A stretch of DNA of 56,076 bases from a virus (lineage: Duplodnaviria; Caudoviricetes): positions 1-56,076 of the IMG/VR virus record IMGVR_UViG_3300024240_000004. One strand, given 5' to 3'. The notes under the pieces were generated by a model. It did no database searches. It saw only the letters and a program-made list of their open reading frames with translations, and was not told the DNA's origin. Every line of letters begins with the position of its first letter. Position 1 is the first letter of the stretch. The translations under genes and the position numbers were made by a program. This document shows positions 6,478 through 7,779 of the stretch, one piece after another.

Positions 6478-7059
6478 TTATGAATTTAATATCGCTTGGA
6501 ATATATTGTAAGCGATTTGAGGTACAATAGCGTTGCCTAAAGCCTTTATTCGCTTATTTCTGTCCAATTGTCTGGGTATCCCATAATCCACTCCACAAAG
6601 CGCGGTTGCAACTTCAAACCAGTCGCCGCTTGCACTACCTCCCCAAAATTGCTTTTCCCTCTGTCGTTCATTGTATCTTTGTAAGCAAATGCTCTCGGCG
6701 TCGGCAATATCGATATCTCCGTCGCTAATCCGTTGCCGGAATATTTGCTCAAACCTTTTCGATTGTGATTCCTGCGAACCGTTGGAGTTGGCAACAATCC
6801 ACAATCTATTGCGTTTATGCGGGGCATCGACGGCGAGAGCTGGAATAATAAACGTCTGGACTTCGTAATCTTGATTTTCCAAGTCAGCGAGAATTGACTC
6901 GAAAACCATTCCGTTTTCGATAGTAAGCAAGCCCGGAACGTTTTCAGCGACAACCCATTTTGGCTTGACTTCGGCAATAACTCTAAGCATTTCTTCCCAG
7001 AGATAGCGGTCATCTTCTTTGCCTTTTCTATTCCCTGCGACGGAGAAAGGCTGGCAAGG
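6478..7059 (-). CDS. C5 cytosine DNA methyltransferase alpha chain, C-terminal part (motifs IV-VIII, X)
   Basis: Frame opens at CCT 7059: PCQPFSVAG, DDRYL, ENVPGL, PHKRNRLWIVA, ALGNAIVPQIA; no in-frame start before the catalytic Cys. Confidence 0.8.
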   Translation of the reverse strand, partial: PCQPFSVAGNRKGKEDDRYLWEEMLRVIAEVKPKWVVAENVPGLLTIENGMVFESILADLENQDYEVQTFIIPALAVDAPHKRNRLWIVANSNGSQESQSKRFEQIFRQRISDGDIDIADAESICLQRYNERQREKQFWGGSASGDWFEVATALCGVDYGIPRQLDRNKRIKALGNAIVPQIAYNIFQAILNS

Positions 7060-7130
7060 TCATCACGGGAACCCGCCAGAAAGAACGTCAATTCTTCCTG
7101 TCCGCGGGCTCCCTTTATCACCTTTTTCAT
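6546..7130 (-). CDS. C5 methyltransferase beta chain in overlapping alternative frame (M.EcoHK31I-like, supplies motif IX)
   Basis: Own SD (TAAGGA) before ATG; LLPTP repeats and terminal LQPRFVEWIMGYPDNWT; motif IX not seen in alpha frame. Confidence 0.75.
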   Translation of the reverse strand: MKKVIKGARGQEELTFFLAGSRDDLASLSPSQGIEKAKKMTAISGKKCLELLPKSSQNGLSLKTFRACLLSKTEWFSSQFSLTWKIKITKSRRLLFQLSPSMPRINAIDCGLLPTPTVRRNHNRKGLSKYSGNGLATEISILPTPRAFAYKDTMNDRGKSNFGEVVQAATGLKLQPRFVEWIMGYPDNWTEISE

Positions 7131-7779
7131 TATAATTATCCTTATCGTTAATAGCCTTATTATTTATATGCCATTCGTAATGGCAGTGTTGGCATAACCA
7201 AATTACGTCTAATGGCTTATCATAGTCAGAATGGTGTGCTTGGATGCCATTCCTACCATCTGAAAATGTATTTTTATTTCCGCATACACTACAAATTGTG
7301 GGGCGTTCTAATATACATTTTTTTATGGCTTTTTCTACAATATGTTGTACCCTTTTCTTCTTATCGTTAGAAGAATTGTCTCTAAAAAAATGGTTGTCAT
7401 TCTCAAATTGTAAATTACTTCTAAAAATACAACCACGGCGTTTTAATATCTTGTGCATGGCTTGTCTTGTTATACCAAAAAAATTAGCTATTTCTTCGAT
7501 AGAAAGTCCTTGCGTATATAAATTAACACAATCATCATATTTAGCCAAACGTTTCGCTCCCATAAAAACATCCCCATTTTCTATTATTTGTAAAAGGTTG
7601 TCATCTATGTCAGCATAAACGTTTTTAACGTCGCGATATTTTATAACATTTGGAAAATTCTTCTTTAATATTTTTTGACAAAAATCATCAATTTCAATTT
7701 GAAAAACATTTTCAAAACCTACCATTTGAGCGGCTAAATCAAAACCGCCAATACCGGAAAATAAAGAAGCGTGTTTCAT
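7063..7779 (-). CDS. C5 methyltransferase alpha chain N-terminal part with in-frame HTH-HNH insertion
   Basis: SLFSGIGG (I), EID (II), RDV (III); insert with GLSIEEIANFFGITRQ HTH and CSVC..AHHSDYDKPLDVIWLCQHCH; ends IDVLSGGFP*. Confidence 0.85.
   Translation of the reverse strand: MKHASLFSGIGGFDLAAQMVGFENVFQIEIDDFCQKILKKNFPNVIKYRDVKNVYADIDDNLLQIIENGDVFMGAKRLAKYDDCVNLYTQGLSIEEIANFFGITRQAMHKILKRRGCIFRSNLQFENDNHFFRDNSSNDKKKRVQHIVEKAIKKCILERPTICSVCGNKNTFSDGRNGIQAHHSDYDKPLDVIWLCQHCHYEWHINNKAINDKDNYNEKGDKGSPRTGRIDVLSGGFP

What the first reader, a model, noticed from the sequence alone, without database searches (positions are those of the whole stretch)
7051..7079. Methyltransferase catalytic motif split as GGFP-UGA-UGA-PCQ: candidate ribosomal bypass/recoding switch
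Seen: the minus strand reads TCT GGC GGG TTC CCG TGA TGA CCT TGC CAG (S G G F P * * P C Q). Both halves of the C5 MTase are in the same frame with otherwise intact motifs, and the downstream half has no start codon before the catalytic Cys. The extra 9 nt put two stops between two Pro codons, so a hop from CCG to CCT would restore exactly GGFPCQPFS. The stops lie at the apex of a hairpin (CUGGC GGGUU / GACCU U GCCAG), and the insertion keeps the overlapping beta frame open (adds RDD). Known: T4 gene 60 bypassing uses matched take-off/landing codons, a stop after take-off and a hairpin; here the codons are synonymous, not identical. Inference: programmed stop-hopping could set the ratio of a truncated MTase-N/HNH product to active MTase. 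Simple inactivation is the alternative.
Basis: partly seen in the sequence, partly recalled or inferred. Interest (0 to 1): 0.85.

Follow-up and report, generated by a model that had tools for sequence, protein, structure and literature searches.

The report
Endonuclease cassette splits methyltransferase catalytic motif
The two stop codons inside the methyltransferase's catalytic motif are the conserved right-hand end of a mobile HNH endonuclease cassette seen in dozens of uncultured phages, and whether ribosomes hop over them to rebuild the enzyme is an open, testable question.

Summary
The sequence is real. The minus strand reads GGFP-TGA-TGA-P-CQ, and contigs of two runs from different samples span it without an indel. 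It is not a chance lesion. Scans of viral and metagenome contigs gave 60 distinct relatives with an HNH endonuclease module fused in frame into the N-terminal part of this C5-methyltransferase. In the 57 tabulated, that ORF stops 0-1 codons after GGFP, and 6-10 extra bases sit between the Pro and Cys codons. All three stop codons are used. Twelve of the 60 insertions break the frame, so readthrough cannot be the general mechanism. An HNH-free relative shows an abrupt change in similarity exactly at the insertion. Intein-bearing homologues are interrupted at the same Pro|Cys point. I read the element as the stop-capped end of a homing-endonuclease cassette, comparable to T4 MobA/gene 60. The gene is an M.EcoHK31I-type alpha/beta methyltransferase; the overlapping "beta frame" is real and stays open across the insertion. 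The catalytic half is still intact in 40 of 46 relatives and looks constrained, yet usually has no start codon. Ribosomal hopping is therefore not excluded (about 25%) but has no positive support: the hairpin is no better than shuffles, take-off and landing codons are not matched beyond chance, and lesions are more frequent than in HNH-free alleles.

The parts
7615..7779 (-). alpha N-terminal methyltransferase segment (motif I FSGIGGF, motifs II-III), which also provides the start of the endonuclease fusion ORF
   Evidence: PF00145 positions 1-66, E 7.6e-12, and phrog_363. pN/pS of this segment is 0.186 in HNH-bearing relatives and 0.176 in HNH-free ones.
7096..7614 (-). inserted module with an HTH (about residues 84-114), an HNH zinc-finger nuclease (about residues 135-212) and a linker; boundaries are approximate
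   Evidence: phrog_2340 'endonuclease' E 6.3e-18; phrog_8446 'HNH endonuclease' E 2.4e-8; weak HTH Pfam hits. CxxC...HH..Y..CxxCH..WH is invariant in alignment A1. L102 carries 429 nt more than the HNH-free L225 between motif I and the Pro codon.
7066..7095 (-). cassette-borne copy of the beta-4 strand and the first half of motif IV (RIDVLSGGFP), the last sense codons of the fusion ORF
   Evidence: The ORF ends in G-F/Y-P in 59 of 60 relatives. In the L102/L225 comparison this segment is diverged (18 of 27 nt identical), while the downstream sequence is 92-96% identical.
7057..7065 (-). the 9 extra bases TGA TGA CCT: two stops plus a second Pro codon (equivalently CCG TGA TGA, 7060-7068)
   Evidence: Relatives carry 6 nt (34), 7 (8), 8 (2), 9 (14) or 10 (2), n=60. 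The first inserted codon is a stop in 51 of 57; in the other 6 it is CGA or CAA followed by TGA.
6478..7056 (-). alpha C-terminal half, from the catalytic Cys (TGC 7054-7056) through motifs IV-VIII and X (GNAIVPQ) to the stop at 6478-6480; no start codon before the Cys
   Evidence: PF00145 positions 70-180, E 7.2e-30; phrog_363 positions 124-313. Intact in 40 of 46 judgeable HNH-bearing relatives.
6546..7130 (-). beta ORF (194 aa) in the +1 frame, running across the insertion (which adds R-D-D); it carries LPTP repeats and a motif IX-like FVEWIMGYPDNWT
   Evidence: phrog_1008 E 3.2e-25. 134 homologues. Found by tblastn in 69 phage records. The frame is open for at least 123 codons in 80 of 80 HNH-free relatives, while the third frame is 14 codons or fewer in 78 of 80. 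Alpha+beta model score 0.89 against a best control of 0.01.

Best explanation
The TGA-TGA-CCT is the right-hand end of a mobile HNH (homing-type) endonuclease cassette that sits inside the alpha gene of an M.EcoHK31I-type alpha/beta C5-methyltransferase. The cassette has four parts: a methyltransferase N-terminal segment, an HTH-HNH module inserted in frame before strand beta-4, its own copy of '..IDVLSGGFP', and a stop codon with 3-7 further bases placed exactly between the Pro and Cys codons of the catalytic PCQ motif.

Shown here:
- The architecture and its conservation.
- The abrupt change in similarity at the insertion.
- The patchy distribution of the cassette among closely related alleles.
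- The preservation of the beta frame across the insertion.

Inferred:
- The stop releases the endonuclease fusion protein.
- The extra bases break up the highly conserved motif-IV DNA, which is the endonuclease's likely target, so the carrier is immune to its own nuclease. The 50-nt insert does this for MobA in T4.
- In this window the catalytic half is not joined to the N half at any programmed, substantial level. The alpha chain is cut, and methylation is lost or at best residual.

My odds are about 0.85 that this is the cassette boundary and about 0.55 that there is no programmed rejoining. Together that gives about 0.5.
For: (1) Recurrence. Scans with the N-part alignment A1 and script parsing gave 60 distinct loci with the fusion. 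In the 57 tabulated, the ORF stops 0-1 codons after GGFP (TGA 28, TAA 17, TAG 6, CGA/CAA then TGA 6).

(2) No continuous form. None of the 69 longer homologues is a continuous N-HNH-GGFPCQ protein.

(3) Empty versus filled site. The HNH-free L225 and the HNH-bearing L102 are 250 of 270 nt identical downstream of the Cys codon, but only 18 of 27 identical just upstream. The alignment gap is 'CCTTGA'. Similarity also changes abruptly at the insertion in L030/L099 and L038/L039.

(4) Patchiness. HNH-bearing and HNH-free alleles are interspersed on a quick tree of the C-half core. At least 12 label changes are needed and starred branches force 2; the tree is poorly resolved.

(5) The same junction is used by other mobile elements. 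P0134 reads GGFP|C..intein..HN|CQPFS.

(6) The nuclease looks active. Its zinc and HNH residues are invariant in A1, and N-part dN/dS is 0.04-0.12.

(7) Signs of relaxed methyltransferase constraint.
- The C half is defective in 6 of 46 HNH-bearing loci against 1 of 74 HNH-free loci (Fisher p 0.013). L020 also has a frameshift after CQPF.
- 5 of 52 loci have a frame-breaking 4-5 nt insertion in motif I.
- Substitutions by codon position trend towards relaxation: 28/12/35 in HNH-bearing pairs against 109/47/216 in HNH-free pairs (p 0.19, not significant).

(8) Precedent. The MobA element carries a homologous region plus an insert that blocks self-nicking (Manning & Atkins preprint, abstract and passages).
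Against: No cleavage data exist, so target-site immunity is inference only. L088 keeps an intact GGFPCQ next to a related HNH, so an insertion at Pro|Cys is not always needed.

Several results suggest that the methyltransferase still matters in carriers:
- Motif I pN/pS is the same as in HNH-free alleles (0.186 against 0.176).
- GGFP is retained.
- The catalytic loop consensus CQPfS.AGkr.G..DdR.LWPE holds in 46 sequences. A-frame amino-acid changes (33) are far fewer than B-frame changes (77).
- The alpha-only tail has dN/dS 0.17-0.23.
- The beta ORF is kept open across the insertion with an upstream start in 44 of 60. By the M.EcoHK31I precedent, beta is useful only together with alpha.
- No second PF00145 gene is present in the window or in 5 other carrier records.
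- The codon before Cys has drifted from Pro in 20 of 57, while Cys-Gln has not. This fits a product that starts or resumes at the Cys.

Recombination with HNH-free alleles could explain much of this, but that was not demonstrated.
Confidence: 0.5

Rival explanations
1. Same cassette, with programmed short-range translational bypass. Peptidyl-tRNA-Pro leaves the CCG codon when the stop enters the A site, slides 6-10 nt and re-pairs at the codon next to TGC. Decoding resumes at Cys and yields a full-length alpha chain with an exact GGFPCQ and an embedded HNH module. The hop efficiency would set the ratio of nuclease-only product to active methyltransferase.
For: - It is the only single mechanism that fits all insertion lengths (6, 7, 8, 9, 10 nt) and the double stops.
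- A stop lies within two codons after the Pro in 57 of 57. A C-terminal Pro before a stop is a poor termination context (recalled knowledge).
- The codon before Cys is YYN in 53 of 57, which could pair with a tRNA-Pro anticodon by Watson-Crick or G-U pairs.
- That codon is free to drift from Pro while the upstream Pro and the Cys-Gln are kept.
- CCC, which is prone to +1 slips before a U (recalled), is never the take-off codon: 0 of 60 against 30 of 73 in HNH-free alleles, p 1e-9.
- The signs of continued constraint on both alpha halves and on beta apply here too.
Against: - No product data exist.
- The hairpin is not supported, and there is no Rfam match.
- Among the 37 relatives with a Pro landing codon, take-off and landing codons are identical in only 8.
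- The YYN bias is also what transition mutations of an ancestral CCN would give.
- 4 of 57 landing codons (ACG, GCG) pair poorly.
- 6 of 57 have CGA or CAA, not a stop, right after the Pro.
- GGAGG/GGGGG upstream is not enriched (33 of 60 against 48 of 73).
- The 4-5 nt motif I insertions in 5 loci cannot be repaired by a matched hop.
- The C half shows more lesions than in HNH-free alleles.
- Known unassisted hops over stops are about 1% efficient (recalled).
Confidence: 0.25
2. Gene in pieces. The N fragment (motifs I-III, HNH, beta-4) and the C fragment (from Cys) are made as separate polypeptides. They assemble with beta into an active or DNA-binding enzyme by fragment complementation.
For: - L088 is a true split. 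The HNH ORF stops 14 codons before GGFP, and an overlapping ATG-started ORF encodes beta-4 plus an intact GGFPCQ through motif X.
- In 3 of 12 frame-breaking variants a TTG lies directly before the Cys codon. Two others have a GTG or TTG further upstream in the open frame.
- The motif I insertions in L005, L052 and L109 create overlapping stop/start pairs (TTGA, ATGA).
- C5-methyltransferases tolerate splitting: M.AquI, M.EcoHK31I, and fragments of M.HhaI, M.BspRI, M.BsuRI and M.SssI (PMC3404938 passages).
Against: In the window and in all 48 of 60 in-frame variants, only 1-2 non-start codons (CCN, TCR, CTN, AGA CCN) separate the stop from Cys. The next in-frame start in the window is 22 codons past the Cys. 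Seven of 12 frame-breaking variants have no start either. A split inside the catalytic loop has not been shown to complement.
Confidence: 0.12
3. TGA is read as an amino acid, either by stop-codon reassignment or suppressor tRNA, or by leaky readthrough, giving GGFP-X-X-PCQ.
For: Under TGA=W the two halves merge into one 433-aa ORF. UGA followed by C is a leaky context (recalled).
Against: - TGA ends 16 of 59 long ORFs in the window.
- No other pair of ORFs merges under TGA=W; ORFs only gain a few codons.
- The window has no tRNA genes.
- Relatives use TAA (17) and TAG (6) at the same place, as well as double stops.
- 12 of 60 insertions break the frame.
- Two or three extra residues would sit inside the catalytic loop.
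Confidence: 0.02
4. Random pseudogenisation or an assembly error.
For: The record is a metagenome assembly covered at low depth.
Against: Two runs from different samples carry the same 9 nt. The same kind of interruption is present at the same codon junction in 60 distinct relatives.
Confidence: 0.01

Closest known systems
T4-type MobA element with the gene 60 bypass cassette (Bonocora et al. 2011, recalled; Manning & Atkins 2022 preprint 10.1101/2022.08.31.505936, abstract and passages read)
   Same: An HNH homing endonuclease sits inside a conserved phage enzyme gene. The element carries its own copy of the host segment next to the insertion (homR there, IDVLSGGFP here). It is followed by a short non-coding insert that starts with a stop or a rare codon and lies in highly conserved coding DNA. 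Distribution among close relatives is patchy, with clean breaks in identity.
   Different: The insert is 6-10 nt, not 50 nt. No conserved RNA structure, nascent-peptide signal or matched codons were found. The endonuclease is translationally fused to the host gene's N terminus instead of being a separate ORF. Neither bypassing nor protection from nicking has been shown here.
M.EcoHK31I alpha/beta C5-methyltransferase (Lee, Kam & Shaw 1995, as described in PMC2836561 and PMC3404938; passages read)
   Same: Alpha carries motifs I-VIII and X. Beta carries motif IX and is encoded in another reading frame inside the alpha gene. Beta's N terminus is dispensable there, and here it tolerates the added R-D-D.
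   Different: Here the variable LPTP-repeat region lies in the beta frame. Alpha is interrupted by the HNH module and the stops. Sequence relatedness to M.EcoHK31I itself was not tested, because I had no sequence of it.
Inteins and 'fractured genes' at catalytic Cys/Ser/Thr residues (Dassa et al. 2009, PMC2677866; search listing and abstract only)
   Same: The interruption is at exactly the Pro|Cys junction where homologues P0134, P0135, P0148, P0153, P0163 and P0168 carry Hint/intein domains. A homing endonuclease is associated with the interruption.
   Different: No intein sequence is present. A stop codon cannot be removed by protein splicing.
mobE-split nrdA of phage Aeh1, a 'genes in pieces' case (PMC3045599 abstract seen in a search listing; Friedrich et al. 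2007 recalled)
   Same: A homing endonuclease insertion cuts an enzyme gene into separately encoded parts that may reassemble.
   Different: There both parts have their own start codons. Here the downstream part usually has none; L088 is the exception.
Unassisted tRNA hopping over stop codons in E. coli (Weiss et al. 1987; recalled, not read)
   Same: Synonymous codons flank a stop 6-9 nt apart.
   Different: Those hops are laboratory constructs with about 1% efficiency. No natural gene is known to depend on one.

Membership tests
Programmed translational bypass (gene 60 type) | Matched take-off and landing codons | tested here: inconclusive
   The window has CCG and CCT. The landing codon is a Pro codon in 37 of 57 relatives and identical to the take-off codon in 8 of those 37. 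It is not Pro in 20 of 57.
Programmed translational bypass (gene 60 type) | Stop or hungry codon right after the take-off codon | tested here: met
   A stop comes first in 51 of 57; CGA or CAA followed by TGA in 6 of 57.
Programmed translational bypass (gene 60 type) | Conserved take-off stem-loop or other RNA structure | tested here: not met
   Window z -0.75 (42 of 200 shuffles fold as well). Relatives give z +1.04, -0.46, +1.18 and +0.65. An uninterrupted allele folds similarly. No Rfam match.
Programmed translational bypass (gene 60 type) | Full-length protein made across the gap | not testable with these tools
   No proteomic or ribosome-profiling data are available. No RNA run holder was listed.
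Homing endonuclease cassette | Intact, conserved nuclease ORF | tested here: met
   phrog_2340 and phrog_8446 hits. HNH and zinc ligands are invariant in A1. N-part dN/dS is 0.04-0.12.
Homing endonuclease cassette | Presence or absence among closely related alleles, with a sharp boundary at the insertion | tested here: met
   L225 (empty site) against L102, L038, L042, L039 and L099: 92-96% identity over 114 nt downstream and 18 of 27 upstream. Quick tree: at least 12 label changes. Only one empty-site comparator was found.
Homing endonuclease cassette | Nuclease cuts the empty site; the insertion confers immunity | not testable with these tools
   This is inference by analogy with MobA. L088 argues that the Pro|Cys insertion is not always required.
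M.EcoHK31I-type alpha/beta C5-methyltransferase | Alpha with motifs I-VIII and X; beta with motif IX encoded in another frame within alpha | tested here: met
   Translations. The beta frame is open in 80 of 80 HNH-free relatives. phrog_1008 hit. The architecture matches the description in PMC2836561.
M.EcoHK31I-type alpha/beta C5-methyltransferase | Alpha and beta associate | tested here: met
   Model of an HNH-free pair (L194, alignments A5 and A6): score 0.89 against a best control of 0.01. That mark was reached by 58 of 80 solved complexes and 2 of 110 mismatched pairs. Runs agree in at least 66% of contacts, and partner pLDDT is at least 60. The model supports binding but does not show it. 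Motif IX/X packing resembles solved single-chain enzymes, so the pass may partly reflect likeness.
M.EcoHK31I-type alpha/beta C5-methyltransferase | Methylation requires both chains | not testable with these tools
   This needs an enzyme assay.
Stop-codon reassignment (TGA sense) | In-frame TGAs across many genes; TGA not used as a terminator | tested here: not met
   TGA terminates 16 of 59 long ORFs. Only this gene merges under TGA=W. No tRNA genes were found.

The most novel reading that the evidence does not exclude
A large natural family of more than 50 diverged variants makes ribosomes hop 6-10 nt from a Pro codon over one or two stop codons to resume at the catalytic Cys. This would rebuild an exact GGFPCQ motif in a phage methyltransferase that carries an embedded HNH nuclease. 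It would be a second, minimal and structure-free class of programmed bypass, again tied to a homing-endonuclease cassette. Hop efficiency would set the ratio of nuclease to methyltransferase.
Probability: 0.25. Interest if true: 0.9.

Novelty: new variant of a known kind. Interest (0 to 1): 0.6.

Why it matters
Programmed bypassing in bacteria and phages is known from one element family, T4 gene 60/MobA. Here a second HNH cassette family places a stop-led mini-insert inside the most conserved codons of its host gene. It comes with dozens of natural length and codon variants that could go straight into reporter assays.

If hopping is ruled out, the family is still informative. It shows how a homing endonuclease can use a host gene's own start and N-terminal fold. 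It caps itself with a stop at an intein-type insertion point. It keeps an overlapping second gene (beta) open across the junction. It also shows that the M.EcoHK31I alpha/beta overlapping architecture, described for one enzyme, is common in phage methyltransferases. That matters for annotation, because such genes are easily called frameshifted or duplicated.

Tried and rejected
- **Genetic code change:** rejected.
- **Group I intron or intein covering the gap:** considered and rejected from the sequence. GGFP directly abuts the stop, and only 6-10 nt separate it from Cys.
- **Frameshift routes:**
  - A -1 slip at C-CCG leads into the third frame, which closes after 8-14 codons in most relatives.
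  - A +1 slip leads into beta, not to the Cys.
  - A shift from beta back to alpha before the Cys has no slippery site.
- **Hairpin:** not better than shuffles.
- **Rfam:** no match at E up to 1.
- **SD-like GGAGG enrichment:** absent.
- **Beta alone:** folded poorly (pLDDT 61, pTM 0.28), so no fold search was made.
- **RNA evidence:** no RNA holder was listed. The laid runs are contigs only and say nothing on expression.
- **Cultured phages:** none of the 210 matching GenBank phage records covers at least 80% of the N-part/HNH fusion, so no cultured carrier was found in that collection.
- **Literature:** searches found no paper describing this cassette or stops inside motif IV. Supplements were not seen. 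The alignment files of the Manning & Atkins preprint might list other HNH cassettes.
- **dN/dS and codon-position tests for relaxed selection after insertion:** underpowered and confounded by recombination. The careful tree search did not finish, so only the quick tree is used.
Full report
**1. Observation**

The minus strand 7079..7051 reads TCT GGC GGG TTC CCG TGA TGA CCT TGC CAG.

- Upstream lies a 238-aa ORF (7779..7066). It starts with methyltransferase motif I, continues into an HTH-HNH module and ends in RIDVLSGGFP.
- Downstream, in the same frame, PCQPFS..ENV..RNRLW..GNAIVPQ runs to 6481.
- Pfam PF00145 matches the N part at positions 1-66 and the C part at positions 70-180. PHROGs gives a methyltransferase family for both halves and an endonuclease family for residues 135-212.
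- No ATG, GTG or TTG lies in frame between the stops and the Cys. The next one is 22 codons later.
- Contigs of two runs from different samples span the site with no indel. Depth is only 2-3, and one run may be the source sample.

**2. Genetic code**

The record is a linear, 61%-complete virus contig with 32% GC. TGA ends 16 of 59 long ORFs. Reading TGA as Trp merges no other genes, and no tRNA gene is present. TGA is therefore a stop in this phage.

**3. The interruption is a family trait**

- A degenerate DNA pattern and the N-part protein found three relatives with P-stop(s)-[P/S]-CQ.
- Scans of metagenome and viral contigs with the N-part alignment, parsed by script, gave 60 distinct loci with the fusion ORF.
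- The extra DNA between the Pro and Cys codons is 6 nt in 34 loci, 7 in 8, 8 in 2, 9 in 14 and 10 in 2.
- In the 57 loci tabulated, the first extra codon is TGA (28), TAA (17), TAG (6), or CGA/CAA followed by TGA (6).
- The codon before Cys is CCN in 37, TCA in 7, TTG in 4, ACG in 3, CTN in 3, TTA in 2 and GCG in 1.
- Among 69 longer homologues, none is a continuous N-HNH-GGFPCQ protein.

Three conclusions follow. Chance and simple decay are excluded. Readthrough is excluded as a general mechanism, because of TAA, double stops and 12 frame-breaking lengths.

**4. What the gene is**

- The +1 frame ORF (7130..6546) is a real gene. It matches phrog_1008 (E 3e-25), has 134 database homologues and occurs in 69 phage records. 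In some of these records two nested 'methyltransferase' CDS are annotated.
- In 80 HNH-free relatives this frame is open for at least 123 codons after the Cys position in all 80. The third frame closes within 14 codons in 78.
- Its C terminus (LQPRFVEWIMGYPDNWT) looks like motif IX, which the alpha frame lacks. Alpha has motifs I-VIII and X.
- This is the architecture described for M.EcoHK31I, whose beta chain is encoded in another frame inside alpha and carries motif IX (passages of PMC2836561 and PMC3404938).
- Beta alone folds poorly (pLDDT 61).
- An alpha+beta model of an HNH-free pair scored 0.89 against a best control of 0.01. That mark was reached by 58 of 80 solved complexes and 2 of 110 mismatched pairs. 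Runs agree in at least 66% of contacts and partner pLDDT is at least 60. Beta's motif IX segment touches alpha's motifs X and I.
- The model supports binding but does not show it. Likeness to solved single-chain enzymes may contribute.

**5. What the insertion is**

- Comparison of the HNH-free L225 with the HNH-bearing L102 defines two differences:
  - about 429 nt (the HTH-HNH module) before strand beta-4;
  - 6 nt at Pro|Cys, aligned as 'CCTTGA'.
- Downstream of the Cys codon the two are 250 of 270 nt identical. The 27 nt just upstream are only 18 of 27 identical.
- The N-terminal 150 nt are 124 of 150 identical. Further upstream the sequences are unrelated.
- Similarity also changes abruptly at the insertion in L030/L099 and L038/L039. 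Other pairs differ by swaps of the variable region.
- On a quick and poorly resolved tree of the C-half core, carriers and non-carriers are interspersed, with at least 12 label changes.
- Homologues with inteins are interrupted at exactly GGFP|CQ (P0134).
- The nuclease residues are invariant, and the N part has dN/dS 0.04-0.12.

Together this is the signature of a mobile endonuclease cassette. Its right end is the stop codon plus a few bases, placed in the most conserved DNA of the target gene. The closest precedent is the MobA element of T4-like phages. That element carries a copy of the host segment, followed by an insert that begins with a stop or hungry codon and blocks self-nicking (Manning & Atkins preprint, abstract and passages). 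That the extra bases confer immunity here is inference. L088, where a related HNH ORF lies next to an intact GGFPCQ, argues it is not always needed.

**6. Is the catalytic half still used?**

Evidence for:
- The C half is intact, with motif X, in 40 of 46 judgeable carriers.
- The catalytic loop consensus is kept. In 14 independent carrier pairs there are 33 alpha-frame and 77 beta-frame amino-acid changes in the first 22 codons.
- The alpha-only tail has dN/dS 0.17-0.23.
- Motif I in the cassette has pN/pS 0.186, against 0.176 in non-carriers.
- Beta stays open across the insertion, with a start inside the cassette, in 44 of 60. Many of the rest are cut by contig ends.
- No second C5-methyltransferase is present in the window or in five other carrier records.
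- The Pro codon before the stop is never CCC: 0 of 60 against 30 of 73 in non-carriers, p 1e-9. This suggests selection on what ribosomes do at this site.

Evidence against:
- The C half is defective in 6 of 46 carriers against 1 of 74 non-carriers (p 0.013). Two of the six are atypical architectures, not clear breaks; counting only the other four gives 4 of 46 (p 0.07). L020 also has a frameshift.
- Five of 52 carriers have a frame-breaking 4-5 nt insertion inside motif I. Three of these form an overlapping stop/start that gives the HNH ORF its own start.
- Pairs that clearly diverged after acquiring the cassette show a weaker alpha-frame signature: 28/12/35 substitutions at codon positions 1/2/3, against 109/47/216 in non-carriers. 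The difference is not significant (p 0.19).
- Recombination with functional alleles can mimic constraint.

**7. Mechanisms for reaching the Cys**

- **Separate initiation.** This is plausible only in a minority: L088 with its own ATG, a TTG next to Cys in 3 of 12 frame-breaking variants and GTG/TTG further upstream in 2 more. It does not apply to the window.
- **Frameshifts.** These lead into the short third frame or into beta.
- **Hopping.** This fits every variant on paper, and it fits the Pro-stop context. It lacks any positive signal:
  - the hairpin is no better than shuffles;
  - among the 37 relatives with a Pro landing codon, take-off and landing codons are identical in only 8;
  - there is no SD-like enrichment;
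  - the YYN bias of the landing codon is what transitions from CCN would give.

**8. Verdict**

It is best read as the stop-capped end of an HNH homing-endonuclease cassette inside an M.EcoHK31I-type alpha/beta methyltransferase gene.

| Question | My odds |
|---|---|
| It is the cassette boundary | about 0.85 |
| No programmed rejoining of alpha in this phage | about 0.55 |
| Programmed hop | about 0.25 |
| Separately made fragments | about 0.12 |

I rate it a new variant of a known kind, with interest 0.6. The interest would rise to about 0.9 if a hop product were shown.

Noticed in passing
window 6546-7130 (-); L175-L254: The alpha/beta overlapping-frame architecture, described for M.EcoHK31I, appears general in this phage methyltransferase family. 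The beta frame is open for at least 123 codons in 80 of 80 HNH-free relatives, while the third frame is 14 codons or fewer in 78 of 80. GenBank phages annotate it inconsistently: as nested CDS in Jacopo, and as a single CDS out of frame with the beta match in Lc-Nu and C72C1.
   Followed up: yes
L005 ~7467-7480; L019 ~2180-2195; L052 ~310-325; L054 ~120-135; L109 ~2487-2502: There is a second recurrent mini-insertion of 4-5 nt between FSGI and GGFDL of motif I: TGAGC, TGTT, TGACG, CAAC and TGACC. In three loci the TGA overlaps a TTG or ATG that restarts the HNH ORF. This may be another endonuclease target or the left end of an autonomous form of the cassette.
   Followed up: partly
proteins P0134, P0135, P0148, P0153, P0163, P0168: These homologous methyltransferases carry Hint/intein domains. 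In P0134 the intein sits exactly between GGFP and CQPFS, the same junction as the stop insertion.
   Followed up: partly
proteins P0157, P0159: A different HNH (PF13392) is inserted in frame, without stops, shortly before motif X of the alpha chain. This family is a hotspot for endonuclease insertions.
   Followed up: no
junction codon in 60 carrier loci and 73 HNH-free loci: The Pro codon preceding the stop is never CCC (0 of 60), and CCG is enriched (27 of 60). In uninterrupted alleles CCC accounts for 30 of 73 and CCG for 4 of 73. This is unexplained. One possibility is avoidance of the +1-slippery CCC-U context, which would run into the beta frame.
   Followed up: partly
L030/L099, L015/L016, L042/L102, L039/L042, L051/L073: Near-identical carriers differ by wholesale replacement of about 300 nt after motif VIII. 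This region is the LPTP-repeat region in beta and a hydrophilic linker in alpha. Identity resumes at motif X. It looks like specificity-module swapping.
   Followed up: no
proteins P0049, P0072, P0110; L028; L020: Single-frame chimeras join alpha-frame motifs to beta-frame sequence at different points: after motif I, after ENV, and after motif VIII. In L020 an indel after CQPF puts beta in frame with the Cys. These may be natural frame fusions or sequencing errors.
   Followed up: no
L088 ~280-360: This is a variant carrier. The HNH ORF ends 14 codons before GGFP, and an overlapping ATG-started ORF encodes beta-4 plus an intact GGFPCQ through motif X. It is a conventional split gene without the Pro|Cys insertion.
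   Followed up: partly
window 6781-7093: blastn finds 65-74% nucleotide similarity to methyltransferase genes of Lactobacillus, Bacteroides and Porphyromonas phages. This is unusually deep DNA conservation, as expected for a doubly coding stretch.
   Followed up: no
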